From positions 14,495 through 78,494 of the forward strand of contig JAGOSC010000003.1 of the NCBI GenBank assembly GCA_018062515.1: DNA of 64,000 nt, given 5' to 3'. Shown here piece by piece: positions 8,307 through 51,900 of the stretch. This stretch comes from Candidatus Omnitrophota bacterium. GTDB taxonomy: Bacteria > Omnitrophota > Gorgyraeia > Zapsychrales > Zapsychraceae. A program made the position numbers and the translations under genes. Under the pieces are notes generated by a model, which searched no databases, was not told the DNA's origin, and saw only the letters and a list, made by a program, of their open reading frames with translations. How positions within the stretch are numbered: position 1 is the first letter of the stretch; every line of letters starts with the position of its first letter.

Positions 8307-8307
8307 C

Positions 8308-18802: not shown

Positions 18803-18955
18803 TTTAAAAATTAATCTCGAATATCGAAGTCCGAAATACGAAACAATTTCTAATTTCCGAATAATTAAACAGGTCAAAAACGTTTTAAACATTAAAACAT
18901 TCTGATTTGAGTTATTGTTTCAAATTTCGATATTCGGATTTCGAAATTTCTTTAA
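18803..18955. terminator. Convergent intergenic spacer rich in TTCGAAAT/CGAATATCGAA palindromic words; candidate bidirectional terminator
   Basis: cgaatatcgaa (18818-18828) is complementary to ttcgatattcg (18925-18935), and tttcgaaa palindromes are present. It lies between the mutL stop and the giant-gene stop. Confidence 0.3.
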
Positions 18956-30900: not shown

Positions 30901-33900
30901 CATTTTCTAGTATTTTCTTTCTGAAAGAACCCAAGTGTATTTCGTAAATTGAAATCGGATGATTGATCGATGTTTCAACTCTATTCTTCATCCATTCCCC
31001 ATCATTCCATGTGTACTTCTTAACATTCACGACTTCAGAGGCTGTGCTATATTCTTTTCCTTCGGTTGGATGTTCGTTGTACTGCGCGTATGGATCCGCT
31101 TTAGTTTGAACTTGACCATCTTTACCGACGACGTGGAATTTATAACGACTTCCTTCTTTCACGCCAGCGATATAAATCGACCATACGCCGCTATCTGTAT
31201 CCAATGTCATTTGATTTGATTCATGTTGGCCATTGTTAAAATCACCGATGACTGAAACGGCCTGAGCATTTGGCGCCCAGACGGCGAAATAAGTACCATA
31301 TACTTTTTGTTCAGTTTCGATTAGATGAGCGCCGAGCTTTTCATAAACGCGGCTATGAGTACCTTCGTGATTGAATAAAAGTTTATCGAATCCGCCGAAT
31401 TGTAAGCTATTGATTTTTTCTTGAACTAGACGAGCTTCTTCATCCAATTCGGTTTGATAGGTAAAGAATTGATCTTCACGTTGGCTGTTGAGTTTATGGG
31501 AAAGGTTGAATTCAGCGACGGCGCCGATTTCGTGGACCAAGCTGGCGGCGGCTTGAACGTCGGTTAAATATCCGCGTGTTACGTATTCAGGATGATTAGA
31601 TAGGAGTATATATTCTTCATTGTTATATTCATAAACGGTAGCTAAAAATCCTTTGAATGGACCGGCGCGGACATAACCGGCGCTAACCATCGCACTCAAT
31701 CGTTCAGCCATGGCTTTGTAACCGTGACTATATAAATAATCAAGCGCAATCGTAACGGCTGCATCATTGATCATTATCGTGGCCAAACGATTAATATCAT
31801 TCTTTCTCGTTCTTTCTCTTATTTCTCTGAGAATAGAAATAACTTTTAGCGTTAAGCCTTCTGCTTTTAATCTCCAATCCCAATTGTTCACCGTTGTGTT
31901 AGGCTTATTCATTCTGGCTTCTCCGCCCAAACCAAGCACATCTTGCATTTGAACAATCGCTGTATTGGCTTTTGATGACATCGCAATCTGAATTAAAGCC
32001 AAATGAATATTTTTCTCGTTAATTTCTTTATTCAAGAATTCTTCAATCTCAATTTTTTCTTTAGCCGTGGCATCCGCAATATACCAACCGACTGTCGTGT
32101 TATTATCATGAGTTCCGGGATAAACCACTGTATTTGAATCAACATCACCCAATCCGAACTGAAGAACTTTCATGCCAGGCAAGTTAAATTGTTTTAACAA
32201 GGCTGTTACTTTTGGCGTAATTTTATCTTCCGCGCCTAAATCCTCGGCGATAAACGGCATATCTGGGAAATCTTTTTTCAATTGATTAAACAAGTCGGCT
32301 TGTGGACCGTCGAGCCATTTTCCATTTTTGGCTGTCTCTTCACCAGCTGGAATGGCCCAGTAAGCCACAAACCCGCGGAAATGATCCAATCGAATAATGT
32401 CGAAGAAATTAAGTTGATGGCGTAAACGGGCAACCCACCAGGCATAATTATTGTTCTTAAGCACATCCCAACGATAAAGCGGATTACCCCAAATTTGTCC
32501 AGTTTTACTAAACGCATCAGGCGGAACTCCAGCTTTAAACTTGAGCTGATTGTTTTCAGCCAGATCAAAATACTCACGGTTAACCCAAACATCGGCGCTG
32601 TCATGGCTGACAAACATTGGGACATCTCCGATAAGACGGACATTATTTTTAGAAGCATAGCTCTTCAATTCCTTCATTTGTTTGTACAACATGAATTGTA
32701 CAAACATGACTTCTTGAATATTGTCTTTATGCTTTCGCTGATATTTCTTGATCGCCGTTTTATTTCTATTTCTTACATCTTCTTTCCAATCCCACCATGG
32801 TTTTAATTCATTATTTTCTTTGAGAGTTCTGAATAAAGCGTAATCTTGCAACCAATCATCATTATTGGCGATAAATGTTTTAAATTCTTTTTTGTTAGCC
32901 GTTGATTTGAAGCGTTGATAGGCAATTTTTAATAAACGCTTTTTGAATTGGACAACAGCTTCATAGTCGACGAAGTTTTCATCGCCGGATTTAAAATCAG
33001 ATATTTCTTCTTCCGTCAAGAATCCGTATTCAACCAATTTTTCTAAACTGATCAATAACGGATTTAAGGCAAAGGCTGAATCGCTCAAATACGGTGAATG
33101 TTTGGTATAACCATCCGTCGGTGATAATGGAAGCATTTGCCAAATATGTTGTTTGGCTTTGGCTAAAAGATCAATAAATAGATACGCAGCCGGTCCAAAA
33201 TCTCCAATACCATGACGTGATGGCAATGATGTCATGGACAACAATACGCCGCTTTCTTTCGCTTCCGTCACGCGCTTGACTTCTTTACGGACCGTCACTC
33301 GGGTCGGCATTTTCTCGCCGGGAACTGGACGGGCTGCATCTTTTCTGACTGGTTTTAACTCCAATTCCAAGACTAAGTAACCCTGCGGATTTAAGATCAC
33401 TGTTGAGTTCTCAGTGAATGGATATTGTTCTTCACTACTTTCAAGACTGGTCCACAGGCCATTATTCTTCTCAGAAATATTCCATTCAGCTGGATTTAAG
33501 TTGAGCGTGAATGTTTGTGTTTCTTCTGAACGATTCACAATAACTAATCCCTGTTTCTGTCCGAGTTTTCGCTGGAAGACAAGTATGCCGTCTGGCAACC
33601 GACCGGTTACAATTTTATTAATTTCACCATTGCTCCATAAATCTGTACGGGTTTTGGGCAACCAATAATCATAAAATCTTCTTACATCAGGATTATTGGT
33701 TTCATTTTCAGGATGTCGTGTTACATACGTAGCGGTTGGTTTTTCCTTTGATCGTCCGTCGCGTTGACCAGAATTGATCATCACCATACCAGGTATCGTC
33801 ATCATGATGATCGCAGCAGCCATTTGCTGTTCTGTCGTCAAGAAGCTGGCTATACGTCGAGAAGGATCGTCATGATTTTCTAAGAAATGAACCGTGCGAG

Positions 33901-36900
33901 ATAAATAATCTAAAGTCGTTCTATCACGATTGGTTAAATAATCCCACAATTCGTGTGTCGATTGTTGTCCGTCGACGAGAATGTCAAACACATGTTTGTC
34001 ATAGGTATAATCAGATCCCAATTCTTGTAAATATTTCTGCAAGAAATATGATTCAGAAACGAAAATAGCATTCTTATAACCTTTCTTTAGTTCATTTAAT
34101 AATTCCGCAAAAACTTCCGTAGAAACCAATTTTTTGCCGCCATTCGTATGCAAAAATCCGTTAAGTTTTTCTTTTAACAATAATTCGGCCATATCGATTC
34201 GGAATCCGCCGCCATTAGTTAAGCCAAGAATATGTTTCAAGACCTTAATCATGTGTTCTCTTAATTCCGGATTGGTCCAATCTAACTCAACGGTATCTAT
34301 CCACGGCGCGCTGTTTGGCCCTTCTTGTCCATGGAGAAACGCTCTTGGACCATGGATCGTATCAGCGATGAAATATCGATTGTTATATTTCATGGCATCT
34401 TTACGATTCTTCATATAATCCCCGAGTCTAAGTGCCGTCAACCCTAACGCTTTTAATTTTTCCAAGCTGATAGAAACGAACCACTCTGGATTGGAGTAGA
34501 TCCATGATGAATCGGCAGCCATATGATTTGGAACAAAGTCGACGATGACTTTCAAGCCAGCGGCATTGGCACGTTTCACTAATTTACGGAATGATTGTTC
34601 CGTTCCTAATTCTTCATTGATCGTGTAATCCTTAATGCTATAAGCTGAACCGATTCGTTTTTCATCCCACATTTTATTGAACTTGACCGTAAAGTCGCCG
34701 GTTTGCCAAATACCCATCATCCAAACGATGTTAAAGCCTTCTTTGCGTAAATTCTTCAACATCTTCGTCGAGACTTGATCGAAACGAAGGCCTTTTTCAC
34801 GGGCATTCCATAAATACATATTGGCGCCTTGGGTTTTGATTTCTTCATCAACATTGATTTTAGATTTCAAGATCGTTGCCAACGCTTCGTCATTCAGATT
34901 GACTGAATGGTCACCCTTCTTAATCGCTTCAACCTTGGCAAAAATTTTGCGATTATGTTCAGCGTGGATTTCAGCGGCGGCCATGATGGCTTCTTGTTTG
35001 GCCAATTCAACTAATTCTGAATTATCCATTTCCGGTGATTCCTTACGTACTCTTTCATAGGCCTTCCAGAATGTTTCTGCGAAAACCTCGTCAGTTTTGC
35101 GGGCTAATGCAAGAAGTTTTTTCATTTGACCGATTGTCGGCAGGACACGTTTATTTTGAATAGGATCGTAAATTCCAGATTTAAGATGGTCGTAAACGAA
35201 TAGATACTCTGATTTACGATCAAAGTTGGTGGAAATTAGACTGAATTTGCTAATTCTGTTTGACTCTTCAATATATGGACCAAATTCAGGCGTGGTTGCG
35301 TAGATTTTAATAATTTCTTCTTCTGTATAATTCTTATTCGGGTTCTTTTCTTTAAGAATATTTCTAATGAATTGCATCCATCTATGATCGAAAATCATCG
35401 CCGGCGGAGCGTTGGATGAACCATTATTTCTATTCTTATTTTCTTTAACCTGTTTACGATTTTCCGTCGCTGAGTGAAGTGCGGTGTACATCTTTTTACC
35501 CATCCAAACAAACGGGCCGGCAAAACCGACAAAAATTAAGTACCATTTATTCTTTCTTAATTGTTCATTCTTGATGAAGAAGTCTGGTTTGTTAACGGCT
35601 GACGTATAGAAAACACTGAAATATTGTGTTGAAATACCGTCGATGGCGACGGCAAATGAAGCTAAGACTGGATGCTGAACGATGAAGCTGCGTACGATTG
35701 AATGTATACGTGTCATCCAATAGGCTTCAAATTGTTTAGCACCGACTTTTCCAGCTTCTTCTTTCAATCTTTCGATGTTTCCACGGACAAATCTAACCAT
35801 ATTGGTATAACCAAATGTTCGTAATCGAACCATGGTCATGATACCAGCAATTCTTAAGGCGGTTGTCACCGCTTCTTCTATACCTGTTGATTGACCGCCA
35901 AATAAACTTGGAGCTAGATGACTTACCATCCATACTATGGCCGCAATTCCCGTCGTGGCGACGACTGCAAATTTAACATCCTTGATAAACTCCTCTTTAT
36001 CAAATGCTTTGGATAATTTAATTGTTCGGGCTTTATCCATCATTCCCATAAGATCCACTGCAACCATAAATGCGCTGACTGACAGAATTAAATATGTTAA
36101 ATCTAAATCTTTCGGCGCGATGACGGTGAAGTAAACCCAGCTGAACGCTCCCATGATCAAACCTAATGGGAAGGCCGCCACGATTTGTTTCTTGATAATG
36201 TCCTGACCGCCGATCCATTGACCAGAAAAGTCCGTGGCTGCCATGAACATACCGAAGATGATAATGTTAGCGACCGGTAAAGCGACGACGAGCGTCAATA
36301 ATCCGAAGAGATAACCGTAGGTTAACAAGGCTAAAGCTGAAATAGCAGAAACACTGACCAGGGCTTTGAATAATACATTCTTGGTCCGTTTGTTTTTCTG
36401 AACAGAATTATTCTTTTGATCGTCGACTCCATTGCTCGCGGCATTGTCCGTCAATAGTTTGGATTGTTCCGCTTTAGCCAACGCGTTATTTTTGTTTATT
36501 TGTTCTATTTCTTGAGCCGTAAACAATGGTTCAATGAACGGCTGGAATCGAGCAGGAACTGCCTTTGAACCATTCTTTAGAGAGCCAAACAAACTTCCCA
36601 AATATGTTTCAACATTAAAGACATCCATGGTTTGTTTTAATTTAATTCCTGATTGGCGAGAAAGAAGTTCCGCGCGGTCCTTTAATTGTTTCAGACTATC
36701 GTCAGTAACGATAAACATGCGGTGACGTCGGCCGCTCAAGATATTTTTGTTCAACTGATCCGCGCCATATACCTTGAATCTCTTTTTATCTTTATCATCT
36801 TTCTTCTTGGTCATCATCATGAAAGCGATATAAAGCGAATGCTTCCACAAAATTTCTTTAACCATCTTGTCAAAACCTCTTTTCTCAGCGCGTTTCTGCA

Positions 36901-39900
36901 ATTTACTGCTGTTGACCGAATACCCGTTAGAGATTCCTTTGTTTATTTCATGTTCTATCTTTGTTTTGTCTAATTCACTAAAGTTAAAATTCTCAATAAT
37001 TTTCTCGATATACTTGTTCAGCACTCTCAGTTTTTCTAAGTTAATAACATTATCTTCTTTAACCAAACTTAAAATCTGCATAATAATAGCCAAATGTCCG
37101 CCTACTTCTGGAAAAGTATTATAATAATAGGCCTTTAATGACATCGGAAGATTATGGCGGTATTGAAAATACAACATAATCGGCACACGAATAAGCAGCG
37201 CCACAGCCAGCGAGACAATTAAATATGAAATAATTGGCGCTAATAAAGTTAGCAGAACACGTTCCCCTACTAAATTATTTACCGTAAGATACGTTCCAAT
37301 CGACATACCGAAAACCTTTAAAAAGGTAGTGAATACCTTCAACCCTGTGAAAATTTTAAAGATTTTCCAATACTGACCAATTTGCTTACGTGACAATTCT
37401 TTTTTCTTAAGAGCCAAAACAATAACAAGACTAAGAAGTTTCCTTATAGAATTAATCTTCTTTATTGTGACCCGTGTGGTGCCTTTTAATATTGAGAATG
37501 AGCCAACCAAAACCAGCGCTAAGACTGCGGTCAACAGCAAGCCAGGTATAAATTCAGAGGTGATGCCGTCACCTTCAGTTTTTTCCGATTCCCCAATCGT
37601 TTCAACTTTAGTAATTGTTGATGACTCGGCATCACCTCTTCCTTCAGATTTCTTGGAGACAGCGTCGTTTTCTATTGTTTCCGATTCCCCAATCGTCACT
37701 TTAGTTTTTGCAAAAGAACGATCGCTGTCTCCAATATGGCGCGTATCTGAAATATTTTTCTGAGAGTCTACAGAGGTGATGCCGATAACTTTAGTTTTTC
37801 CGATTCCCCAACCGTTAATAACTTTAGTTTTATCTAAATCGACATCACCTCTGTAAATGAATGTGAAGACAGCATCAAGCTTTTCAGTTTTTTCCGATTC
37901 CCCAATCGTATTAACTTTAGTTTCTGTAAACGAACGGCTGACACTGCCTTCAATAGATTGTGTTGCTTGAGAATTTACAGGGATGATGCCGCCAATGTTT
38001 CCGATTCCCCAATCGTTAACTTTAGTTTTGTCTAATGAACGGGCATCATCCCTAGAGTTTGTGGAGACAGTGTCAGCGTTTTCAGTTTTTTCCGATTCCC
38101 CAATCGTATTAACTTTAGTTTCTGTAAATGAACCGCCGACGCTGTCTCCAATATTTATTGTGACGAAAAGCACAAATGTAATTAAAGTGGCTGCTGTAAA
38201 GCGTGCAGCTTTCTTAAATATTGCGCGGACAACGCCCATAACTGTTGTATTTCCGATTCCCCAATCGTTAATAACTTTAGTTTTTAAAGAACGATGGGCG
38301 TTGTCTGCGATATGTTTTATGTTTGAAATGTTTGTTGGTAGATATTGAGTGGATGTTTCGATCGTGCGGATGGTGAAGGCGTAAAACTTGAATACAACAC
38401 CATTTCGATCAACTAAAACGTTCAACCGGGCTAACCAGCTTAACAATTGGATCAGAACACCTTTACCCGCAATTTCTTTTTCTTTCAAATCATTTGAATT
38501 TTCAGCGGCGTAAACAGGTGTCGCGGCAAATGGATTCAATTTGCTTAATAATGTAAAAATGGTCGGCATCACTGGCAACACTGGTGTAGGCGCAGCTGGT
38601 AATGTCGTCGGAACGTTTACAGGAATCGTCGAATCTAAATGAGCCGGAATGTTTGTTTTGATCTTCTTAATTTCTTGTGCTTTATCTAAAATCTTATTTT
38701 CTTTAGTTTTATTAATTTGTTTTCGAAGTTTTACAACAGCAGCGATTGAAACAGCGACAATGATGAACGCTTTGATCACAATCGGGCTGAGGAAGAATGT
38801 CGCGACGGCCAGCAATATGATTGGACCGCGGTCATGTATTCCCAGCTCATCTTTAAAATAAACATCCCTGATCTCAACTATTTCAACTTCATCAATTTTC
38901 TCTAATGCCTTTCTTAAACCATTTTCCGCGTCTTCTATTGAAGTAGTTATCGGCATTTCCAGTCTCAATTCCAACAAGACTTCGTCATTATTATCTTCTC
39001 GAGCAATAACTGTATTATCGATATTGATTTTCAACTCACTTATGGTCGCTGATATTTTATTCATCAGTCCTTTGGCATCCGTTACCGTAATATAAATATC
39101 CCGTTTAATTGTTTGATCAGGCCGTATGGGAATATTTCTATCTTCTCTCAAATCTTGTTTTAACCGATTTATGCGTTTATCGAGATCGAGATCAGTAATC
39201 TCATTAGATATGATAATTTCAATTATTTTCTTTCCTTGTCTTTTTGACTTTTTAGTAGAAACATTATATATAAAGATATCGCCAAAAATACCCGTCGCTA
39301 ACTTTTGCATACCAGGCCGGTCTAACAAATCTATCTTGATAATTATTTTATGTTTCCCGGATTTGTTAACAGTAACGTCAATCTCATCCCAGGACTTCAA
39401 TTTTTCTGTAACGACCGCTGGCTTCAATTCACCGAGTGCGACGGCCTGGAACACGCCATCAGCGGTAAATTTAATACCCTTAATTTTTAATTCAGATAAT
39501 AAGTCTTGAGCTGAATAGTTCAGACGGTCGGTTATCACTTGATTATTTAAATCGATGCCCTCTTGAATTAATGCTTGTCTTCCGGTTTCATTGAGAATTT
39601 TAATAATCGTTTCCCGGATTATATTTCCGTTACCGTTACTGTTAAACGCGGCCAGTCCAACGATAACTTCTTTAATTTCATTGAGCTTCAAAGATTCTTT
39701 GACCTGTTCCAAAACTTGATTAGTTACGCTTGTTCCAAGACCTAATTTTTGCAATAATCCCAATTGCGGTAAGCCAATATTTTTAAGTTCTTGCATACCA
39801 AGCGCGTAATAATTTGATTTTGGATGAGCAATCTCCATAACCCTAATCTTTGTACGCCATGATTTTGCCGAATTCAATATAGCTCTTTGCATGGCCGGAT

Positions 39901-42900
39901 TATTACCCAGCTTAATTTTTGTTGAATTTGATCCTTGTCGAACCATATCTCCAGGTTGAAGTTCTGAATTTTCCCGGGCTTGGGCTGGATCCTGTGAGGC
40001 ATCATATGAATCTGATTTATCAACCCAAGAATTTGTTCTTGGTCTGTACGTTTGCACACCGATATAATCTTCCGTCAACCCTTTTTCGAATTGAGCGGAA
40101 CTTTGTTTGAAATTTAGCATAACAAAATCAGCCCCAGTTGCGTCTCTCGGTAGTTCGACGATATCAACAAACTTTTCACCGTCGATTTTTACCCATGTCT
40201 GAACGTGCATAATTCCTAAAGTTTTAAGTTTCTGATAAACAATATTAACCGACTCGTCTGCATCTTCACTTAAGTAAACTGATTCCTCCGGAGAAACTTT
40301 TTGCCCGGTTTTTCGCTGAATTGTATACAACCAATGAGAAAGTTTTCCGGCTTCATTCTTGACGCCAAAGCGCTGAGCATCAAATCTTTCTTTTGACTGA
40401 AGCATTATTTCATAAACTAATCCGTCTTTATAATTTCTAACCAAAATATGGACGTTATCATCTTCTTTGCGATCAGGGTTTGGATTATCTTTTGTTGAAG
40501 GCAATAGCTGCCCAAAGTTTTCCTCGATCTTACCGACTATATTCCAAATAGCTGCAGCCGCAGCCCGTCCTGTTTTATTCTTAACGATAAGAGTAATACC
40601 CAATAAGTCATTAAGTTCTGATACCTTTTTATATTTTGAACTGTCTTTTCCTTTTCGCACTTCATTAACTTTTTCATAAGCGCTGTGAGCTGTCTTAACT
40701 CGTTGATAGCTCTCAATAGAATTATCAAATACATCGTTTAAAACGCCTGTCAGTTCATTAGTAATTTCCTTCAAATAATTCTTCAATGCTTCGTAGGTGA
40801 ATTTACTATTTTTATATTGTCTAGGTGTCTGCGCTGTAACAATTTCTTCAATTGTTTCATGATATTTAACCGGATCTTTCAGAATAAAGATGCGTTCATG
40901 TAATACTCTCACTAAATTGGTACGATAAAATAGAGAAGCTAAAGTTACATAAATATCTTCAACTTCCCGAATGAAAGATTTTTCGGAATCCGTTAATTCA
41001 TGTTTTTGTGTTCCTTGTTGTTTGATCATTTCTTCGAGAAAAACAATATTCTCAGCAAACACCAAACGAAGAATATCCGCTTCAGCCACATCGTTTTTAT
41101 CGTCAATGCCGCCAGTCATTTCTACTATCATATCGACATAATCTTGAATTAAACTGTCTGTTATTCTTTGATCAACATCTTTTCGTTTTCTAATAACTTT
41201 ATCGGGATGATATTGGAGATTAAGGATGCGTTTGAAATTATAGACCATCTTCAAAGCCCACTCGACTGAACCATTCTTGATGCGCTTGCTGTTGCGTAAA
41301 ATATATTTGTTTAAATCTTTGTCACGATGATCGGCTTCAAAGAACAAGGCCGCGATAACTCCCTTAAACTTAGCTTCTTGACGGATAACAGCATCAACCA
41401 ACTTAAAGGCATATTGCATTTGTTCTTCGTTATATTTCGTCGAGATAATATCATAAGCTTCTTTAATAGCATCGGTGTGTTGTTTGAGGGTTTCTTCATC
41501 AACAGGATGTCGACGATATTGATTACGTTTACTATAAGCTTTCATTAATTCATCCATCTTTTCATCAAAGTTGTTATTATTTCTATTATTATCACCGCCG
41601 TTTATTAACACCGCCAATCCAGCGAATATCAAACCAGCTCCAAGAATATTATCGATCACATAAGCGACCGCCGCTGCCACAATCACGACTAGAAAGTCCC
41701 AAATCTTAGAGGTGCTGATATGGTTTATGAGTCCTTTTAACTTATTGTTTTTTGAAGGGCCGATTTTCATCAAGAATTGTCGGCTAAATTCATTGTTTTG
41801 GCTTTCAACCAGACGGATAATCCATTCTTTTTCATCATCGTATTTAAGTTTATTAAATATTTTAATAAGCGTATCTGTGTTATTTGTTGGGTTGCTCGCT
41901 TCTCTTATAACATCAATTCCAAAATATCTATCTTTTCCAAAGAGACGAGAAATATCCGCCCGAACTTGCGCATCTGCTCTTAACCACAATAAAAGCATGG
42001 CGCTCATCATCGTTCGTTTATGAGGAACTTTATGAATTATGTTCTTGTAATGATCAGATATGGTTAAAACCCAATCAATACTGGAATGATCACTCAATTC
42101 AACTGCTTTGGCGTAAACCTCCCAAATGCTATTCATTAATTCGCTAGCTTGTTCAAAAATACTTCTAATCGCTTCTTCTTTAATTTCCTCTTGAGTCGGA
42201 TTTTTATTTTTTCTCAAAAGTCTATCTTTTGCATTTTTAAGGAGGTCTTTGTCAGACGCTAATTCAAAAGCGTCTTCTATAATTATTTCTACCGCGTCTC
42301 TGGCGTTTTTCAAAGTTTTGATTTCTTTCGGCAATCGATAAAAATTATCCTTGTCGGCGATGGCGTTCAATAAGATTCTCTTAAATTCAAATCGGATATG
42401 TTTATATTCATTAGGAAGGCTGTCAATAAATGATTTGCCCGTGCTTGGCATTTTGGCGATGAAAAATTGGTATAATGTTCCGTCTTTAACATCCTTAATA
42501 GCTTGGCCTTCCATTATTCGTCCGAACGTATATCGTCCGACGAGTTCTTCATTGCTTGAATTTTTATCACTCATCAAATTATGAGCGCGGTCAGCCAACT
42601 TAACCGTCATTGCTATATAACCCGCGCGGATAATTCGGTCATAATAGCGAATGGTTAAACGTTTTTGATTCCAGTCCGCTAACTTCTTCGCCAATTCAAC
42701 CAACACGGCCGGAGCGCCCAATTTTTTCAATACTGAATATATTTTCAACGGAATTAAGTTTTCGTTTTTATTTCTGGTCAATACCTTGACCAATTTGATG
42801 ACCTCATCAATATCAAGATTTCTCGCTGGGTCGTTTTCATCTAATTTCTCGACCAATTCCTCTAATTGTTGACGAAGTCTCTTTTCGACTAAGGCCATCA

Positions 42901-45900
42901 TTTTCTTGGTCACGTGAATTTTTCGTCCGTCATTCAACCGGCGAATTTTCGCTGGCATTAATTTATTTTTGTCATTCGTGTAATAATCAATACTGTTTTC
43001 AATAACATCATGGAGAATGTCTACGGCCACAGCGACAGGGTTTGATATCAGGAACCAGTTAACTGACATACTAGCAACACTGTGAAGATGTGAAGTATAA
43101 TCCGTTCCGACTACATCTTTTCTGACATCGCCTTCGTGATGGTCTTTAACAATTTCGTTTAAACCTTCAACATATTTTCTAGTTAAACCGGTATTGAGCT
43201 GTCCTAGGCCAATAAAATTATCTGGATCAAACACGTGTACTCCATAAATCTTCTTAAAGATTTCTGAAAAAATATCTTCAGCGGAGCCGGCCTTAAATTG
43301 TTTATAGAATTGTCTTTCTACGGCCGGTTGTTGTGATGCGTCTTTAATATTTTCAACAACACTTGATTTAATCATAGGCTCATTACGTTTTGATAAAATT
43401 TTCCAAATGGCAAAACCAGCCGCGCCAACAGCCAACGCGCTAACAGCCACCCAGCCCCAAACTGGCATTGAAACCAATATAACTGGAGTGAAAGCGATCA
43501 ACGCGTCGACGACGATAATACTTGATCCAGCTTCATAAACATTTTTAATCGTTTTATTAAATACCGCGACAATGCCCTTACGACCAATGTTTTCGATTCC
43601 CCAATCGTTAACTTTAGTTACAAAAGAACGAAGGGCATTGTCGGCGGTAATATTTGAGATGTTGGATTGAAGATACTTTGAAGATTTGATCCTGGCAAAT
43701 GTAAGAACAGCGACGATGAATATCATCTTTATGACAATCGGGCTGATTATAAATACAACACCGGCTGTTAAAATTATTGCTCCTAAATCATTGGATTTAG
43801 TACCGCGCTCTTCAATTCTATTGAACAATATATTTTCTAAGAATGTTTTAGCTTTACCCGTTACGCTGGCAACTAATCGTGCCTTAGTGACTTTAGTTGT
43901 ATTGACATTTTGTATAAATCGATTAGCTAATATGTTTTGTTCTTTTTTGCTTAAACGGTTAAATAAACGATTTACCGCAGCCCAATGAGCGGCTGGTATA
44001 GCATTTATTCCTTGTTTTCCGTCGTGAACTGGCTGTATGTCGCCTTTAACGGTATATAAAGCTAAGCCGAACATTTCGCTGATTAAGGTTTCACTTAATT
44101 GTTTTGACGTTAAATCAGCCTTCATTGTATGGCTGATGGCTTTAATGTTTCCGGTGTTGATGGACGTTTCAAAGATTTGTTGAACAGTAGCTTTCGTGCG
44201 GAATTGTTGTAATGGAGTAGTGATAAAGACAAACGTATGGGCGTTTAGTTTTCTTTCAGCGGATAATATTTTGCGGTAATTTTCGAAATTTTGTTTTGTA
44301 TTGGTTGATTCATTCTCGAGGATAACATTTTTACCTTCGGTTAAAGTGATATTTTTGAATTCAACTTCAGTAGCGATCATTTGATTCATCACTTGCAAGA
44401 TGATTTGCGCTTCGCTGATCTTCACTTTTCCTGCGCTTAAAGCTGAACTTAATTCAGCCAAATCAGCCGCTGAACTGATAATCTTTCCGGCGACTTCGAC
44501 CGTGTAACCAGCTTCAAGGGCTTTGATGATCAACGGCATGGTTAATCGTCCATATCCGCCGAGAATAACAATACGTTTGGCGTTTGCTGCTTCATAAACT
44601 CTCAAGGTGTGTCGAATCATATCGATATCATCATTTCCAGCGAAAACAACATCGTCGACGGATTCTTGACTTAATTGTTCCATGGTCATATCAGATTGGC
44701 TGAGGCCTTCAGCCAATTGTTCTTTAGCTTCAGCGGCCAATTTGGCTTGACGTTGGAAGTACAAGCGGGCAGCTAACCAAGCGGCCAGTGATAAGGCAAC
44801 GATACCGGCGATGACAGTCGCATAAGCGCTGAACAATACAACAGCGACTATCCCCGGAGCCAAATCATTCATTTTCTTGGTATTCTTGGTATCTTTAACA
44901 TTCTTATGATTGGATACAGTCAATTTATTATTAAACAATCGTTTGGCTTCATTGAATAAATAATACAAGGATCCTAATATCCAGGTGATGAAAAAGACGC
45001 CAGTAATGGTAACCGGTAAGAAATAAATCAAAGCTGTTGCGGATTCTGTGACGGCCAACCCAATACCGAACCCTAACATAAGTAATTCATAGAATATAAG
45101 CGCTAAACCTTTAAAATATAATCCTCCCTTATTCTTTCTCAAATCTTTCTTAATGGCTTTTGTTAATTCTTGTTTTTCAGAATATATCGTGTTCTTATCA
45201 GCTTTAGCTATTTTAAAGAGTTGTTTGGTGATTGCACCTGGAACCCAGATAACATCTAACCAAGATCGGATAATTCCCGTTTTGGTCCATTGTGTATATC
45301 CTTTGAATCCTTTATAACCAGTTGTTCCGGGGAATATGCCCGGCATAGTCAGAATCGGCGCGAAGGCCCATAAGAAAATAGCGGCAATATAGAAGAATGA
45401 CCAAAGAATTGGTAAGGCTTGCCACAAGAAAACACCTAATGAAGATATGAAAATAAAGATAAGTGAGAAGTTTATCTGGAATTGGAATGAATCGGTCGCC
45501 TTAAGTTTATTACCAGCATTATCCATGAATCTATAAATGCGTTCGATGAACTCAAATCTAGCTATGTCCCATCCCTTCTCTGACTGATTAAACTTAGCCT
45601 TTCCGTGCAAACCTTTGAAAATACCAAGCGAATAATTGATGATGTAAGTGATGTAAACCATCATCAAGGCTGGGAACAATCCAAATAAACTTGAAATACT
45701 GCCTTGAATACCTTTGCGATTGAAATTCACATAATGTTTCACTAATGTGATGGCAAGCACGACTGCCGTGGCCAACCCAGTGAAAGGCATAAACGCCATA
45801 CCCAAAAAGGCCGTTAATCCTAAGAAATGCGCGATAAGTGAGGCCAAAATGGTCGTCGGAATAATACCTAAATAATTTACTAATCCGCGCATAATACCTT

Positions 45901-48900
45901 TTTCCTGTTGTGATTGAGCTATACCGCTCATGGTCACCATTTGTGAGAACCATACGCCGACGAAAGCCAAAAATACCGCGAATGGGAAGCCGGCAAAACC
46001 GCTGACACCCAAATAAAGGACGGTGAATATATATGACGGAACCGCTAACATAATGAACGGTTTCTTGGTAAAGAAGCTGATCGTGAAGAAGAGCATCATT
46101 TTTTGATACCAATTAAATTCTTTACTCTTCATTAAGCGGGTTAATTGACGTCCAAGACCTAATTCCGCCCCGCCAGCCGCAAATTTTTGGAACGGAACAG
46201 AACCGCCCGCGACGCTGACCTCGCGACCTTTACCTACCTGTAAATATTCACGGTGAGCGATGTAGTAACCTTTTCTCTTCAACCAAACTTGAATCGCTAA
46301 CATAATGTCTTCGGATACATAATCCGGAGGAAGCGTTCCGAATTCTTTTAATAATTCAGTTCTGAAAAATGCGCCGTGACCATAGAAACCTAATGCCGCA
46401 GACATGGCATTTACACGCATGACAAATGTTGTCCATGTGCGGTCACCGAAACCATGAACCTTACCAATCCAGTTGAACTTATCGGTGATGATATATTCAG
46501 CGACGTTAACCGCCATCAATTGCGGATCATCGTTGAATTCGGCCAAAAGGTTCGGGAATTTCAAGGCGTCTTCGAAGCGAATATCGTTATTAGCATCCAA
46601 GAACAAGTTGATGTCGCCGGTTGAATAGTTCATCATATTGTTTTGATTCATCGGTTTATAGTTTGGATAAATATTCCACTTTGCCGGTGATCCAAATTCT
46701 TTAAACGTTCCTTCTCTTGGATTAAATTTGTACATACTGTGTTCTTCGTCCGTCAAGAAAGCGACTTGAAGCATTGGATATTTACGTAATAAGAATTTAA
46801 GGTCTTCAATCTTACGGCGCTCTTCTTCCTTGTCATGTTTTTCTAATTTTTTGAAACTTTGATATGCCCAAACGATCTGTAATTTTTCAGCGACTTTAAG
46901 ATCGACAGCGGCTTCACTATGAGCAATTTCCGGGAATAATTGTTTAACGATAAAGCGGTAGGCTTCCCAGGCAGTAATGAGGCCCATAATGGTTCGGTAA
47001 AACGGATGGAAACGCATATTGACGAAGTCTTCCACCATTTCCGTAATCTCTTGGACGATTTCGCTATTCATATTTGTTGGGAACATAAACTCTTCTGTAC
47101 CTTCCAAAGCGCGCCATTCTGAAATGGTTGATTCGTCAATATTTTTGCCATATGTAGTAACTAAACGGCTCACAAAATTCTGCCATTCATCCGGCATTTC
47201 CTTAATAATGTGCGTTAACTTGGTTTTACCGACACCGCCCTCTTCTTTATTCAGGTCGGAGAAGTGAACCATAACAACTTCATCATTACCAACGGCGTTG
47301 ATCGTCAATTTCGGTAATCTTGTCCATGCCGGCATGGTTGGCATTCTCATCTTGACGACGCTAGTCATATAGAATTGTAAACGCTCTCTGACTTCTTCAT
47401 TTTTAAAGGTTCTGCTGAAATCATTAATAGCTACGCGTTCTTTTTCTTCTTGATCAATTAAATTCTTTTCGTATAAGTGTTTAGCAATTTCACTGCCTGT
47501 TTTCTTAGCGCCAAAATTTTTATCTAATTTGCTTACAAACGCGTCGGCATTTCTTCTTAACCCGCGGGCTGACGTAATAAAGCCTAATCCATCCATCCAT
47601 CCCTTTATTGAACCAGTGATCCATTGTGTAAAGTTAATAAAGGTAAATGTATCAAGAAAGTAGAACATGATGAATGTTGACCAAATAGCAATCGCTAGTC
47701 CCCAACCGGCAACCATACTTAAAGTATGATCTCCAAAAATATTAGACGTTATAATCTTTAAACTACTAAAGACGAAATCATTCCAAACATACTTAAATCC
47801 AAACGTAACGGCCCAGAAGAATGTACTAAAGGACAACTCTTTAAGAGAGCGTCTAACATAATTCTTTCTCAAATAACTGCTACTTATTCCTTTATCTATT
47901 CTGCTTGCCGTATTTACTATATTTCGGATGTTTTGAATCAAATTCTTAACAACCAAAAAGGCTATAAAAGCAATGGCCGCCCATGTCACAAATACCGGAA
48001 TCACCGCATAAATCGGTCCTAAGATAATGATCAATGTCGCCGGAATGGACAAAACAAATGGCCAGTTATTTTTACTATATTGAACAGCACCTCTAAATCC
48101 GGCAAAGTAAGCTGATGCCGCAATGATTATGCTTACCAGCATGATCGCAACTGAGGTAATAAGCATATTATCCGCCAAACCGTAAAACGCGATAACTCCA
48201 TTTAGGATTAAACCAATTACAACGCCGATGATAATATAAGTTTTGCGTGAGGCATAATTTCCGGATTTATCTTTGTATGTCTTGAATTTCTGAATTTTCT
48301 CTGCAATATTTTTAAAACTTGTACTATCTTTGTGTTTATACAACAATGTACCTAAACGGCCTAATCGTTTGAGTCCTTCCTCAAGTGGTAGTTGATTTCC
48401 TTCATTATCTCTTAGTTGCTTACTCAATAAATCTTTAACAAATTCTCGATTATTCAATTGATCAATCAAATCTTCCCAGGTAATTCTAGATTCTTTTTCC
48501 ATATCACCGACCGCTCCGCGATCATAGAATCTAGTTAAATTGAAGTACCATAGATCAATTTCCTTACCGAAGCGTTCTCCAACTCCTGCAGCCCATTTTT
48601 CTTTATCGTGGATATTACTGTCGATCAACTCTCGCAACATAATGGTATATCTTAATCGCGGCAGAATGGCGCGGATATGTGAACCGCGGGTAAACATAAG
48701 CACAAATAATACATACATTTCAAAATTGAATTTAATATTTTCGGGCAACTTTTGTCCGATTTGTATCATCCAATCATTGAATTCACTGAAATTATCGTCG
48801 AGGAATTTATCAGCGGATCGGTTGGTTCCATATAACATGTCAATGATTTTGTATAAGGCGATATCAACGGTTGGTTTATCAAAACCAAATTTTTCAGCGA

Positions 48901-51900
48901 CCGGCTTGATTTTATTTTCGATGGCGATATAAAAATCTTTCATGGCTTTATCAATCTTATTATTGGATTCAGAAATCTTATCCTTTGAACCGCTTTCCCC
49001 TTTCACCAGCTCTTCTTCTATTTTCGCAAGTTCTTCGGTCTTTATTGTCTCCAAAACTTCTTTCGCTTTCGCAAGATCTTCCTTAGACATGATCTTTTCT
49101 CGAGTAACCATTACTTCCAGCGTATTAATTTCTTCTCCTGACTCATCACGTCGATCACCGATAACATATTTGGTGAAGTCATTGCCATTTTTCTTTCTGC
49201 GTTTGGCTAATAAATTGCCTACTCCATAAGATAGTGGACGGCCAACATAACTCCACAAGAAGAGGATTAATGCGGCGATGCTGATCCATTGCATAATCTT
49301 GAACGAATCACCGTTGAAAATTCGGTCAATAAAGGACGTTTGATCAACATCAAATACTACATCAACGGTTTGATTTTCTTGATCAACCACAGTATGGAAA
49401 GGAATATCGAAACTTTGATTATTCTTAAGTTCCCATTGCTCGTCAAAGGTACGGTCCAATTCGGTTAATTCATCCAATCGTTTCGTGTCGGCAATTTTAC
49501 CGTCTTCATAAATATAACGTCTTACATAAACATTGCCTGAAGCTTGATCTTTTTCGGTGACGATGATCACTTCACGCACAATTTTCTTACCATCAACATC
49601 TTTGATAAAGGTATGAGAACTATTAAAGATAACGCTTAATTTCCAATTTCCATCTCCATTATGTGTCGTATAAGCTCTGACGGGTTTTTCATTCTCGTCG
49701 TAGATAACATATTCAACGCCGGATGTTATAATCGGCGCACCGGCATAACCTTGCGCCACCGGATAGAGAAGTTTATGAAATCCTTTAGCCAATAATTTTC
49801 CGCCCGGAGAACGAATTTGTGTGATTTTGAATTGTGAGTCAAGTACAAGAGATTCATAACCTTCAAGTGTCTTAATCACCTTGCCGGCTTCATCATAATA
49901 TTCAAACTGTACTTTATGCGTAGCATCGCGAGAGATTTTTGCGAACACAGCTCCATATTCACCTGGCCCACGGGTGACTGTAAAGTTTTCAAATTTTTGA
50001 CGGCTATACTCAACGTCTGGTGAACGGAAAACTTCAACTTCGGTTAATTGATGATCTTTTCCGACGACAATAGCGCCAGGCTGGACACCGCTGAACATGC
50101 GTGTTAATGTCGTCAACTCGCCGCCATTGTAGCGGACTTGTAAATCGTAAACTCCTTCAAAGTTCCATAAATTAATTCCTAAATCACCATTGGCGAACAA
50201 TACGGCGATTTTGCGTCCGCGAGCATCATTCGGGATCAGGAATTCATGTGTGGTCGTTGTTTCAACTTCTACCGGCTTTCCATCGACGAATGTTTTCGGT
50301 GTGACGAGAACTTCCGGTAATTTGGTATCCGGATAAATGCGCAACGATTCCATAATCTTCCAGAAGCCGCCTTGTTGCTGAACGCGTTCATATTCAGCCG
50401 GGAAACGTTTAGCTAAAGCTTCCATGTAGGTATTGATGACTTGCGGAGTAAAGAGACGTTTGGCAACCACTGTTCTGTCTTCATGAGGAATTTGCATACT
50501 GCGTCGGTAAATATCATAACGGGCTATTGAGAATGTTTCATTCGTCGCGTCATAGACTTTCAGTGAAAGCTCGCCGAATAATGTTCCGTCAGCTAATTTT
50601 TTAACTTCAAATTTTTCGAATTCTGAATGAGTATAAACAACATTTTCTACAGTACCATTCGGATGTCTGACATCCATACTCATAATACCACCCGTCGCTA
50701 AATAAGGATTTTCTTTGCCGTAGATATATTTGGATCTAATAGCTATGATCATATCCCGATTTTCTCTATCCGGAGTGGCGTCGTTTGCGTCAATTTCTTC
50801 TAACAATATGCCTTCAGCAGAGAAGATTTCGATAATATTTCGATAAATTCCGTCACTTAGTACAAGGGTTTTTGTTCTGGTTAATTCGCTAGTCTTATCA
50901 TTATGAGAATATTGGCCATACTTATATTTAAGAATCCAGCGTTTTGACGTTGTATCGTATTCGTAACCGCGTCCGCCGATTTCTTGACCTTGGGCGTTAT
51001 AGATCGGATAAAATCTTTGATCTTTTCCGTCTTGGGTATGGGTCGTTCGGTAAATAAGCTTTCCGTTGACTGTTTGAATGGTGGTTGATTTTTCTAAGTA
51101 TTCTTTCTTGTCATAATCGTACCATTTTGTTTCTTTAAGGATGACGGTTTCGTTGTACGGATTGAACATTCCGACGATGCTCTTAATTACTTTTCCGTTA
51201 ACCTTGATATCAACTTCTTTAGCTGATTGTTGAGCGCCTCGGCCATATCCGCCTTCGGATTGCGCGCCGGCTTTATTTATTTCATAACCTAAAGCGTTGA
51301 AGGTCATTTTCTTGGATTTTCCGGTTCGATAGTCGGTATAGACGATCGTGACTTTAGCGTCGGTTGGTTCAGCGTCGATGTTGTAATAAATGGTGCGTGT
51401 TCCGGCGATCTTGACTTGATGTGCGGCGAAATATTCAATCACTTCTTCGGTATAAGCTTCCATATCTTCGTAATTGTTGTAACTTCCGGTAAATTTAATT
51501 CCGTTCTTATAGATTTCCGTTGATATTTCGATACCGGTTTTTGGATCGTATGTCGGGATGGTGATAAATTTATCGTTAGCTGCGAAAAAGCGTTTTCCGT
51601 TGCGATAAATTTCAACGCCTTCATTTGTTTTCCATTCCGGATTGATTTTCTGAATAATCAAACTCTTATTGATCGGGAATGTTACCGTCGCTAATACTGT
51701 TTCTTCTTGGCCATCTCCGTCGACATCGATGTCAATTTGGAAGTTGGTGAAATTGCCGTTAACAATATTGAGGCGTTCAATTTCGGATAATGTTTTGATC
51801 TTATCCATGACCTTGTTGAGCATGACCAAATCGTATACCTTATATCCTTGTTCGTGAACATAAGCGTCGCCGAGTTCGATTTCGCCGGATGCTGTTTCTA

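What the first reader, a model, noticed from the sequence alone, without database searches (positions are those of the whole stretch)
36000..48500. Enzyme modules alternate with blocks of predicted TM helices: a membrane-woven polyprotein-like organisation
Dense TM blocks lie at about 36000-37500, 41650-41750, 43300-43500, 44900-46100 and 47600-48500, with TM hairpins near 29200-29400 and 49240-49302. Classic cytoplasmic enzymes (RSH, GlgB, MalQ, PALP) and classic periplasmic or extracellular enzymes (SLT, M15, M23-like) sit on the same chain. Either the chain threads the membrane so that modules alternate sides, or it is cleaved into separate enzymes, giving a bacterial polyprotein.
Basis: inference. 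Interest (0 to 1): 0.55.

Follow-up and report, generated by a model that had tools for sequence, protein, structure and literature searches.

The report
Omnitrophota giant membrane-threaded multi-enzyme gene
The region is the middle of a single gene of at least 15,010 codons from an uncultivated Omnitrophota bacterium, one of the already described giant membrane-studded multi-enzyme proteins of that phylum; it matters mainly because it shows what the membrane blocks are and that the whole chain avoids cysteine.

Summary
Window 18956-63988 (minus strand) is one stop-free ORF of at least 15,010 aa, open at the window edge. SLT, GH77/MalQ, GlgB and PALP are clear Pfam matches, and the RSH is confirmed by a profile search (E. 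coli RelA, E 1e-22). M15 is seen only as motifs, and the M23 is degenerate.

The kind is known. The neighbouring genes are exact matches to proteins of a Candidatus Omnitrophota MAG. Giant multi-enzyme proteins with about one TM helix per 370 aa, and the question of whether they are cleaved, are already in the literature (West-Roberts 2023; Nielsen & Lui 2026).

New details:
- Two TM blocks, and the single TM before them, belong to an FKS1/callose-synthase-like (GT48) glucan synthase unit. This unit is conserved inside giant ORFs of four other Omnitrophota-type contigs.
- Other blocks belong to a paralogous junction cassette present 3-4 times.
- A Mesh1-like HD module and a RelA-like module are separated by a hydrophobic hairpin.
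- The chain has 1 Cys in 15,010 aa, against 1.26% in neighbouring genes. Its relatives are also nearly Cys-free.

Whether the chain is threaded or cleaved remains unresolved. Both a threaded topology and a tethered one are self-consistent, and no processing protease was found.

The parts
18956..63988 (-). Single giant ORF, at least 15,010 aa. Its 5' end is open at the window edge.
   Evidence: no stop in 15,010 codons; the 12 nt upstream are also open
49241..49297 (-). Single lead-in TM (aa 4898-4916). K/R flanks suggest out-to-in.
   Evidence: homologous position in L004p, L005p and L006p
48236..49240 (-). Soluble domain before TM1 of the synthase unit (aa 4917-5251). It occupies the position of the cytosolic AC domain of FKS1.
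   Evidence: position only; no Pfam hit
47666..48235 (-). TM1-6 of the FKS1-like unit (aa 5252-5441). Includes a weakly hydrophobic TM5 equivalent at about aa 5384-5404.
   Evidence: hhalign against eukaryotic FKS/callose synthases: probability 100%, E 3.5e-46, conserved FYFLDT after TM6
46097..47665 (-). GT48 glycosyltransferase domain (aa 5442-5964) with the DAN motif at 46589-46597
   Evidence: Pfam Glucan_synthase E 4e-28; PDB FKS1 E 1e-11; motifs DAN, YGHxxF, SEDI, QVGKGR; Foldseek top 8 hits are all FKS1
44768..46096 (-). C-terminal TM bundle of the synthase unit (aa 5965-6407), about 10 predicted helices
   Evidence: the Pfam Glucan_synthase match extends to aa 6281
44069..44572 (-). 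DUF218 (SanA/ElyC/YdcF-type) domain
   Evidence: Pfam E 3e-8, above the gathering score; the module is shared with L004
43394..43777 (-). Junction cassette C2: Ser-Pro hydrophobic element, TKVNDWGI motif, TM pair
42554..43177 (-). Probable Mesh1/SpoT-like HD phosphohydrolase domain within module S4 (41708-43393)
   Evidence: Top three PDB hits are Mesh1 (E 0.02-0.08) with aligned H..RKD..Y..H and LHDV.E motifs; KLADRAHNL motif. The evidence is weak: Pfam and hhalign are negative.
41603..41707 (-). 34-aa hydrophobic helix-DN-helix element between the HD and RSH modules
38816..41602 (-). Divergent long RSH (RelA-like): pseudo-HD, synthetase, TGS and a C-terminal ACT (38888-39097)
   Evidence: RelA 5iqr_8, E 1e-22; ACT
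37544..38815 (-). Junction cassette C3 followed by tandem TKVNDWGI / TKVxTIGESEK peptide repeats
35915..37543 (-). Unassigned stretch: TM 8816, basic amphipathic segment, TM 8915, 270-aa soluble part, 5-TM block (aa 9205-9358)
   Evidence: no family hit
56960..57691 (-). M15-like LAS motifs (57494-57691) and SLT lytic transglycosylase (56960-57244)
52493..52765 (-). Degenerate M23/LytM domain (HxxxD kept, HxH lost)
27839..34759 (-). GH13, GH77 (MalQ; RLDH/AEDLG/THDN motifs intact), GlgB, TM hairpin (29225-29395), PALP
58199..58885 (-). Junction cassette C1. Its second TM looks like a Sec signal peptide (KKTLKFAAVLAAVTMLPGMAMA|QD).
27194..27616 (-). Partial junction cassette C4

Best explanation
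SHOWN.
- The region is the interior (aa ~5160-9330) of one ORF of at least 15,010 aa in a Candidatus Omnitrophota MAG.
- It belongs to the described class of giant, TM-studded multi-enzyme proteins of that phylum.
- The hydrophobic blocks are of two kinds.
  - The first kind is the intrinsic membrane domain of an FKS1/callose-synthase-like GT48 unit (aa 4917-6407). This unit has an N-terminal soluble domain, six TMs, a GT domain with the DAN motif, and about 10 further TMs.
  - The second kind is short junction elements. These include a paralogous cassette used 3-4 times and a helix-break-helix hairpin. They flank soluble modules: DUF218, a probable HD hydrolase, a RelA-like RSH-ACT, and unknown modules.

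INFERRED (most likely mechanism).
- The chain is made as one polypeptide and inserted co-translationally.
- The murein-active modules (M15-like, SLT, degenerate M23; aa 2006-4897) lie outside.
- A single TM brings the chain in.
- The nucleotide- and nucleotide-sugar-dependent modules lie on the cytoplasmic face. These are the GT48 GT domain, the HD and the RSH, and probably GH13/GH77/GlgB/PALP.
- The Ser-Pro junction elements and the hairpin act as re-entrant or paired anchors rather than side-switching spans.
- The result is a membrane-tethered enzyme array.
- It couples cell-wall cutting outside with glucan synthesis and export, alpha-glucan remodelling and alarmone turnover inside.
- Whether it is cut afterwards is open.
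For: - Single ORF.
- Omnitrophota origin: MutS, MutL and RsmB are exact matches to NCBI proteins of an Omnitrophota MAG.
- The class and its TM density are described in the literature. Here there are 41 TMs in 15,010 aa, one per 366.
- GT48 unit.
- The GT48 unit is embedded in stop-free giant ORFs in L004 (23 kb) and L005 (10.5 kb), and in L002 and L006.
- The lead-in TM plus six homologous TMs gives odd parity between the murein hydrolases and the GT domain, and the K/R flanks agree.
- The HD and RSH modules sit on either side of a 34-aa helix-DN-helix. A hydrolase/synthetase pair makes sense only if both are on one side.
- A Ser-Pro break in a hydrophobic element of about 32 aa has an experimental precedent as a re-entrant helix that predictors read as a single span (PglC, PMC6133551).
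- Catalytic motifs are intact in GH77 and GT48.
Against: - The positive-inside rule, applied locally, puts the RSH-ACT module and DUF218 outside. The C-flanks of the Ser-Pro elements carry 3-6 K/R, while the N-flanks are acidic or neutral.
- The 17-TM count for FKS1 (PMC12715860) would place whatever follows the synthase outside.
- Near-total cysteine exclusion extends over the cytoplasmic-type modules. This fits exported proteins better than cytoplasmic ones.
- No topology predictor (DeepTMHMM/TMHMM) was available, and both AlphaFold models were of low confidence.
- The synthetase motif EIQIRT reads EIMLQS here, so RSH activity is uncertain.
Confidence: 0.55

Rival explanations
1. True membrane-woven polyprotein. 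After insertion the chain is cut at or near the recurrent junction cassettes, by signal peptidase on the outer face and/or an unidentified protease. This would release or separate about five blocks: I | M15-SLT-M23-GT48-DUF218 | HD-RSH | unknown-GH13-GH77-GlgB-PALP | C-terminal block.
For: - A paralogous cassette recurs at aa ~1702-1930, 6738-6865 and 8392-8617, with a partial copy at 12125-12265. Each copy lies at a boundary between functional blocks.
- The second TM of C1 has a canonical signal-peptide shape ending AMA|QD.
- The relative L002 carries a Rhomboid domain in its giant ORF.
- Cleavage has been proposed for the class on the basis of C39/S8 domains.
- In L006 the ORF ends about 135 aa after the synthase unit, so that boundary is a natural protein end.
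Against: - No C39, S8, rhomboid, intein or other processing domain was detected in this window.
- The cassette is not found in relatives, so it is not a conserved processing signal of the class.
- The second TMs of C2 and C3 lack AxA-type sites.
- The N-terminus, where C39/S8 domains sit in other giants, lies outside the window.
Confidence: 0.25
2. Largely extracytoplasmic chain. Most modules, including the cytoplasmic-type enzymes, are exposed outside the producer's cytoplasm. They would form a surface coat or be directed at prey or host cells. The hydrophobic elements would be anchors or insertion devices.
For: - There is 1 Cys in 15,010 aa, against 74 in 5,868 aa in neighbouring genes.
- Relatives are similar: 0/7,684 (L004p), 0/3,518 (L005p) and 3/4,370 (L006p). 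Giant-embedded homologues P0002, P0010, P0011 and P0012 are also Cys-free or nearly so.
- By contrast, the 722-aa RSH homologue P0013 has 6 Cys.
- K/R flanks place the RSH-ACT outside.
- West-Roberts 2023 found most domains predicted extracellular.
Against: - The GT48 GT domain needs UDP-glucose, and its topology is fixed by homology to FKS1, where the GT domain is cytosolic.
- The RSH needs ATP and GTP/GDP.
- Moving hydrophilic blocks of more than 2,000 aa across the membrane many times is costly.
- Cysteine exclusion might have another cause, such as avoiding cross-links in a megadalton chain.
Confidence: 0.15
3. Artefact or not one protein: a mis-assembly joining separate genes, a decaying pseudogene, or independent translation of modules from internal starts.
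For: - The window comes from a MAG.
- An independent Logan contig breaks at 20100, where internal repeats begin.
- Shine-Dalgarno motifs are weak in this genome, so internal starts cannot be scored.
Against: - Zero stops in 45 kb at about 39% GC cannot arise without selection.
- Composition is uniform.
- aa 2555-6879 are collinear with giant ORFs from other assemblies.
- The Logan contig is identical over 8664-20100.
- Catalytic motifs are intact.
- Peptides from a homologous giant ORF have been detected in V. archaeovorus.
Confidence: 0.04

Closest known systems
Omnitrophota giant proteins: 'Archaeovorin' type (West-Roberts et al. 2023, bioRxiv 10.1101/2023.11.21.568195) and 'multi-enzyme metabolic cluster' class (Nielsen & Lui 2026, bioRxiv 10.64898/2026.06.07.730766)
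   Same: - Same phylum.
- A single ORF of more than 10 kaa.
- About one TM per 370 aa.
- A mix of glycosyl-transferases/hydrolases, peptidases, SLT and housekeeping-type metabolic enzymes.
- Module content shuffled between relatives.
- A T2SS-type secretin nearby.
- The same open question of cleavage versus a single chain.
   Different: - No SecA_DEAD, C39, S8, HEAT, NUDIX or GT5 domain was detected in the 15,010 aa seen here. The N-terminus is missing from the window.
- This protein contains a GT48 unit, a RelA-like RSH, GH77 and GlgB. The two preprints, as I searched them, do not mention glucan synthase, RelA or cysteine.
Eukaryotic beta-1,3-glucan synthase FKS1 / plant callose synthase (CAZy GT48; PDB 7xe4, 8wl6)
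   Same: - Same order of parts: soluble N-domain, 6 TM, GT-A domain, TM bundle.
- Shared motifs: DAN, YGHxxF, (S/N)EDI and QVGKG(R/K)(E/D).
- hhalign probability 100%.
- FKS1 is the only significant fold match.
   Different: - About 20-25% identity.
- Embedded in a bacterial giant ORF.
- No cysteines, so the two extracellular disulfides needed by yeast Fks1 are absent.
- No Rho1 partner is expected.
- The product and activity are untested.
- The TM count after the GT domain (about 10 against 11) is unresolved.
Long RSH enzymes (RelA/SpoT/Rel) and the small alarmone hydrolase Mesh1
   Same: - Domain order pseudo-HD, synthetase, TGS ... ACT over about 930 aa.
- RxKxxxSxxxK, the catalytic D and E, and HW.Y motifs are present.
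- A separate upstream module carries Mesh1-like H...HD motifs.
   Different: - Not detected by the Pfam RelA_SpoT model directly.
- Flanked on both sides by hydrophobic elements.
- EIQIRT is changed to EIMLQS.
- Hydrolase-like and synthetase-like parts are separated by a membrane hairpin.
Membrane-woven viral polyproteins (for example flavivirus), from my own knowledge
   Same: One chain with internal signal and stop-transfer helices that place enzyme modules on alternate sides of a membrane.
   Different: Those are cleaved by signal peptidase and a viral protease at defined short sites. No protease or conserved cleavage site was found here, and there is no sequence relationship.
Re-entrant membrane helix of monotopic phosphoglycosyl transferases (PglC; PMC6133551)
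   Same: A hydrophobic segment of about 30 aa broken by a conserved Ser-Pro, with a basic flank. Such segments are usually predicted as a single span.
   Different: - In PglC the basic motif is on the N-terminal side and the helix belongs to a catalytic fold.
- Here the basic flank is C-terminal and the element is a linker.
- The resemblance is in form only and was not tested.

Membership tests
Omnitrophota giant multi-enzyme membrane proteins | Encoded in an Omnitrophota genome | tested here: met
   MutS, MutL and RsmB of the window are exact matches to MBP9853429.1, MBP9853430.1 and MBP9853425.1 from 'MAG: Candidatus Omnitrophota bacterium'. Module relatives occur only in Omnitrophota MAGs.
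Omnitrophota giant multi-enzyme membrane proteins | Single ORF of at least 10,000 aa | tested here: met
   15,010 codons without a stop, open at the window edge
Omnitrophota giant multi-enzyme membrane proteins | Many TM helices, about 2% of residues | tested here: met
   40-41 KD segments, one per 366 aa; well above shuffles. A crude predictor was used, not DeepTMHMM.
Omnitrophota giant multi-enzyme membrane proteins | Many distinct enzyme families tiled along the chain with no dominant repeat | tested here: met
   SLT, M23, GT48, DUF218, RSH/ACT, GH13, GH77, CBM48/GlgB and PALP
Archaeovorin type sensu West-Roberts 2023 | SecA_DEAD-like domain, N-terminal C39/S8 peptidase, HEAT repeats, GT5/GT1, NUDIX, methyltransferases | tested here: not met
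   None was detected by Pfam tiling at E <= 0.01 in the 15,010 aa present. The N-terminal part of the gene is outside the window, so absence from the whole protein is not shown.
GT48 (FKS1/callose synthase) | Glucan_synthase (PF02364) homology above threshold | tested here: met
   98.6 bits against a cut-off of 37.2; PDB FKS1 E 1e-11; hhalign E 3.5e-46
GT48 (FKS1/callose synthase) | DAN catalytic motif and companion motifs in the GT domain | tested here: met
   LDANNDIRFEDALK, YGHGAFF, SEDIMLA and QVGKGREVS aligned to eukaryotic sequences; motif defined in PMC12715860
GT48 (FKS1/callose synthase) | Architecture: soluble N-domain, TM1-6, GT, TM7-17 | tested here: inconclusive
   Six TMs before the GT domain by alignment, one of them weakly hydrophobic. 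About 10 were predicted after it, against 11 in FKS1. The N-domain is unassigned. The AlphaFold model is too poor to count helices reliably.
GT48 (FKS1/callose synthase) | Beta-1,3-glucan synthase activity from UDP-glucose | not testable with these tools
   Needs a biochemical assay
Long RSH (RelA/SpoT homologue) | Synthetase domain with RxKxxxSxxxK, catalytic Asp and Glu | tested here: met
   The profile of S5 plus four homologues hits RelA, Rel and SpoT structures at E 1e-22 to 1e-13. The motifs are visible in the sequence.
Long RSH (RelA/SpoT homologue) | N-terminal HD, TGS and C-terminal ACT/RRM in order | tested here: met
   The alignment covers RelA residues 93-432 (HD-like, synthetase, TGS). 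ACT lies at aa 8298-8367, below the Pfam cut-off.
Long RSH (RelA/SpoT homologue) | (p)ppGpp synthesis or hydrolysis | not testable with these tools
   EIQIRT is altered to EIMLQS, so activity is uncertain
Processed polyprotein | A dedicated protease or recurring cleavage sites at module boundaries | tested here: inconclusive
   No protease domain with a processing role was found. A recurrent junction cassette exists, but its function is unknown and it is absent from relatives.
Processed polyprotein | Mature products smaller than the ORF | not testable with these tools
   Needs proteomics
Peptidase M15 (LAS metallopeptidase) | HxxxxxxD ... H zinc ligands within a recognised M15 profile | tested here: inconclusive
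   The motifs EHHTGRAFD and GVGFYKTQLHLD are present. There is no Pfam match at E <= 1.
Peptidase M23 (active LytM) | HxxxD and HxH zinc ligands | tested here: not met
   HVGQD is present. HxH is replaced by IDFRV. The domain match is E 4e-7, so this is a degenerate LytM-type domain.

The most novel reading that the evidence does not exclude
The near-total exclusion of cysteine is conserved in giant ORFs of at least four lineages and covers modules descended from cytoplasmic enzymes. It may mean that the whole chain is built for the extracytoplasmic space or for a prey or host cell. On this reading the paralogous junction cassettes (Ser-Pro element, basic linker, TKVNDWGI motif, signal-like TM) are insertion-and-processing signals. 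They would divide the chain into about five blocks, making it a genuine bacterial membrane-woven polyprotein that also carries a eukaryote-type GT48 glucan synthase.
Probability: 0.15. Interest if true: 0.85.

Novelty: new member of a known kind. Interest (0 to 1): 0.5.

Why it matters
Giant Omnitrophota genes are a recognised puzzle. Nobody knows how a protein of 15,000 to 147,000 aa is inserted in the membrane, which side its enzymes face, or whether it is cut. This window does not solve that, but it adds four handles.

- Some TM blocks are simply the membrane domain of an embedded integral-membrane enzyme. This gives a fixed topological anchor (the GT48 GT domain is cytoplasmic) from which to count.
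- A recurrent junction cassette gives specific candidate sites for N-terminomics.
- Cysteine exclusion is a cheap, assembly-independent signature. It can be tested across all giant ORFs and bears directly on localisation.
- A callose-synthase-like GT48 in bacteria is of interest for the evolution of beta-glucan synthases.

Tried and rejected
- **Word-indexed homologue searches** with the RSH module and the S4 module found nothing. The exhaustive HMMER search of 1.84 billion representatives found only four relatives of the RSH module.
- **NCBIfam** gave nothing useful for the region.
- **Single-sequence AlphaFold of S4** gave pLDDT 39 and was not searched further.
- **AlphaFold of the synthase unit** with nine sequences gave pLDDT 44. 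It was used only for the FKS1 fold match, not for counting helices.
- **hhalign of S4 against the RSH profile** was negative, so the HD call stays weak.
- **Internal translation starts**: Shine-Dalgarno motifs are weak upstream of the neighbouring genes, so this test was dropped.
- **Tandem Repeats Finder** found no DNA-level tandem repeats in the gene. The peptide repeats are diverged at the DNA level.
- **Extending the gene upstream**: a metagenome scan with the first 400 aa found nothing.
- **Rhomboid-like motifs** in the 5-TM block (aa 9205-9358) were sought by eye and not found.
- **Avoidance of stop-adjacent codons** as the cause of the cysteine deficit was rejected, because Trp and Tyr frequencies are normal.
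- **Stand-alone copies** of these enzymes elsewhere in the genome could not be checked from a 64-kb window.

Full report
**What is at the coordinates**

The window holds 18 ordinary bacterial genes at 1-18802: queC, a radical-SAM gene, murI, an Amidase_3 gene, a secretin, rsmB, TPR proteins, mutS and mutL. After them comes one ORF on the minus strand from 63988 to 18956, 15,010 codons long. The 12 bases upstream to the window edge are also open, so the true start probably lies outside the window. The finding region 36000-48500 corresponds to aa ~5163-9329 of this protein.

**Origin**

MutS, MutL and RsmB of the window are exact matches to NCBI proteins MBP9853429.1, MBP9853430.1 and MBP9853425.1. 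These come from 'MAG: Candidatus Omnitrophota bacterium', on an 81,473-bp contig. A Logan contig from run SRR11088468 is identical to window 8664-20100. It ends where internal repeats of the giant gene begin.

**Check of the observation**

- At KD >= 2.0 there are 22 segments, against 3.7 +/- 1.7 in shuffles. Sixteen of the 22 lie in the finding region.
- None at KD >= 1.6 falls in the 1,750-aa GH13/GH77/GlgB span.
- Pfam tiling gives the following:
  - SLT, aa 2249-2343.
  - M23, aa 3742-3832.
  - Glucan_synthase, aa 5777-6281.
  - DUF218, aa 6473-6640.
  - A weak ACT, aa 8298-8367.
  - GH13.
  - GH77, E 2e-152.
  - CBM48 + amylase + amylase_C (GlgB).
  - PALP.
  - An exhaustive HMMER search of the module at aa 7463-8402 found four relatives carrying RelA_SpoT, HD_4 and ACT.
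  - A profile of the five sequences hits E. coli RelA at E 1e-22 across the HD-like, synthetase and TGS parts.
- The M23 has lost its HxH.

**This kind of object is already described**

- Kizina et al. (cited) and Seymour et al. 2023 reported giant ORFs with dozens of TM helices in Omnitrophota.
- West-Roberts et al. 2023 defined 'Archaeovorins'.
  - These carry many TM helices, glycosyl-transferases and hydrolases, peptidases and SLT.
  - They also carry glycolytic enzymes whose predicted extracellular location 'seems highly unlikely'.
  - The authors raised post-translational cleavage as an open question.
- Nielsen & Lui 2026 catalogued 916 such proteins. [quoted passage not shown]
- The present protein has one per 366.

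**What the TM blocks are: the synthase unit**

- The blocks at 47600-48500 and 44900-46100 belong to one FKS1/callose-synthase-like (GT48) unit.
  - Sequence evidence: Pfam 98.6 bits; PDB FKS1 E 1e-11; hhalign against eukaryotic sequences probability 100% and E 3.5e-46 over 1,123 columns.
  - The DAN, YGHxxF, SEDI and QVGKGR motifs are conserved.
  - Foldseek's only significant hits are eight FKS1 structures, although the model is of low confidence.
- The alignment maps aa 5252-5441 onto eukaryotic TM1-6. This includes a weakly hydrophobic TM5 equivalent that hydropathy alone misses.
- In FKS1 the N-terminal accessory domain and the GT domain are cytosolic.
- Counting from that anchor gives six TMs back to the soluble domain at aa 4917-5251 (inside), and one further TM (aa 4898) back to the 2,900-aa TM-free stretch that carries M15-like, SLT and M23.
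- That stretch therefore falls outside, where murein hydrolases belong. The K/R flanks of every helix in this stretch agree.
- The same unit, preceded by a long TM-free region and a single TM, is embedded in giant ORFs elsewhere:
  - Omnitrophota MAGs L004 (23 kb, no stop) and L005 (10.5 kb, no stop).
  - A frameshift-riddled low-coverage contig, L002.
  - L006, where the ORF ends about 135 aa after the unit.
- Downstream modules differ between relatives. L004 has GH2, DUF218, UPF0489 and HATPase_c.
- Apart from these, the databases searched returned only eukaryotic callose and glucan synthases.

**What the TM blocks are: junction elements**

- Self-comparison shows a paralogous cassette at aa ~1702-1930, 6738-6865 and 8392-8617, with a partial copy at 12125-12265.
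- Each cassette has four parts in order:
  - A hydrophobic element of about 32 aa with a central Ser-Pro (for example GPIILLAVATFFLSPIVIKAFIIVAVSIAAVV).
  - A basic linker.
  - A motif NIS..ADNA.RSL.TKVN(D/G)WGI.
  - A TM helix with a basic N-flank.
- After C3 the motif is repeated in tandem up to aa 8810.
- The cassettes divide the chain into blocks:
  - Block I (up to about aa 1700).
  - M15-like, SLT, M23, GT48, DUF218.
  - HD, RSH-ACT.
  - Unknown, a 5-TM block, GH13, GH77, GlgB, PALP.
  - The C-terminal block.
- The cassette was not found in the relatives.
- Between cassette C2 and the RSH lies module S4.
  - Its best PDB matches are the three Mesh1 entries (E 0.02-0.08), with the catalytic H...HD motifs aligned.
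  - This is suggestive only, because Pfam and hhalign are negative.
- S4 and the RSH are separated by a 34-aa helix-DN-helix element.

**Topology beyond the synthase is ambiguous**

Two models are self-consistent.

- Model A treats each Ser-Pro element and the 34-aa element as single spans.
  - The K/R flanks fit this, as does the 17-TM parity of FKS1.
  - But the RSH-ACT and DUF218 then lie outside.
- Model B treats them as re-entrant elements or paired helices.
  - All nucleotide-dependent modules then lie inside, and the 10 predicted helices after the GT domain fit.
  - There is an experimental precedent: the Ser-Pro re-entrant helix of PglC, which predictors call a single span.
- Because the Ser-Pro elements are paralogous, whichever holds for one should hold for all.
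- I favour Model B on functional grounds, but only weakly.

**An unexpected property bears on this**

- The giant protein has 1 cysteine in 15,010 residues. The 18 neighbouring genes have 74 in 5,868 (1.26%).
- All other residues, including Trp and Tyr, are at normal frequency.
- The relatives are alike:
  - L004p has 0 in 7,684, L005p 0 in 3,518 and L006p 3 in 4,370.
  - The giant-embedded homologues P0002, P0010, P0011 and P0012 have 0-1.
  - By contrast, the 722-aa RSH homologue P0013, the eukaryotic FKS proteins and the non-giant genes of L006 have about 1%.
- Neither preprint mentions cysteine, and a literature search found nothing on it.
- From my own knowledge, cysteine exclusion is typical of exported proteins in bacteria without disulfide-forming machinery. 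That favours an extracytoplasmic reading even for cytoplasmic-type modules. Other causes cannot be excluded.

**Evidence on cleavage**

- No processing protease, intein or known self-cleaving module was detected in the window.
- Hints in favour of cleavage:
  - The cassette recurs at block boundaries.
  - A signal-peptide-like TM ends AMA|QD in C1.
  - L002 has a Rhomboid domain.
  - The ORF of L006 ends naturally right after the synthase unit.
- None of this is decisive.

**Verdict**

It is not new for this class.
- The object is a new member of a known kind.
- Four details appear unreported in the sources I could search:
  - A bacterial GT48 unit that explains two of the TM blocks.
  - A paralogous junction cassette.
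  - A hydrolase, hairpin and RelA-like arrangement.
  - Near-total cysteine exclusion.

Noticed in passing
window 18956-63988 (whole ORF); the single Cys codon is at 28427-28429: Near-total cysteine exclusion: 1 Cys in 15,010 aa against 1.26% in the 18 neighbouring genes. Giant-ORF relatives L004, L005 and L006 have 0, 0 and 3 Cys in 7,684, 3,518 and 4,370 aa. Trp and Tyr frequencies are normal. Not mentioned in the two giant-gene preprints.
   Followed up: partly
window 58199-58885, 43394-43777, 38138-38815 (repeats to 37544), 27194-27616: A paralogous junction cassette recurs 3-4 times at boundaries between functional blocks. It consists of a Ser-Pro hydrophobic element, a basic linker, a TKVN(D/G)WGI motif and a TM. 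It was not found in relatives.
   Followed up: partly
window 44768-49240: A eukaryote-type GT48 (FKS1/callose synthase-like) glucan synthase unit in a bacterium. The only close relatives found are in Omnitrophota giant ORFs; all other hits are plant, fungal or chytrid enzymes at about 25% identity. It has no cysteines, so it lacks the two extracellular disulfides that yeast Fks1 needs.
   Followed up: partly
window 41603-43393 and 38816-41602: A probable Mesh1/SpoT-like HD hydrolase module and a RelA-like synthetase-TGS-ACT module are separated by a 34-aa hydrophobic helix-DN-helix. The synthetase motif EIQIRT reads EIMLQS.
   Followed up: partly
window 20042-22480: Large internal protein repeats near the C-terminus (aa 13837-14649, units of about 280 aa, 30-71% identity). 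An independent Logan contig of the same locus ends at 20100, at the edge of this repeat. This is the part of the gene most at risk of mis-assembly.
   Followed up: partly
window 59126-60934: N-terminal repeat region (aa 1019-1621, roughly 95-aa units). It has recurring GFGLVLV-type hydrophobic segments and a DIIVEVV.SLIGRLAEEAV motif.
   Followed up: no
window 4494-7048: An Amidase_3 (AmiC-like) gene and a GspD/PilQ-type secretin lie about 12 kb beyond the 3' end of the giant gene. West-Roberts 2023 note that T2SS-like genes often lie near giant genes. A degenerate LytM domain inside the giant protein might regulate such an amidase.
   Followed up: no
L002 (ENA ERZ26696514 ctg287574), 1-25034: A 2.78x-coverage contig in which ten tightly overlapping same-strand 'genes' are evidently one giant ORF broken by frameshift errors. 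It carries DUF3179, the GT48 unit, PALP, Bac_transf and Rhomboid domains.
   Followed up: partly
window 45594-46112: A 172-aa ORF in another frame of the minus strand lies inside the TM bundle of the synthase unit. It is probably spurious.
   Followed up: no
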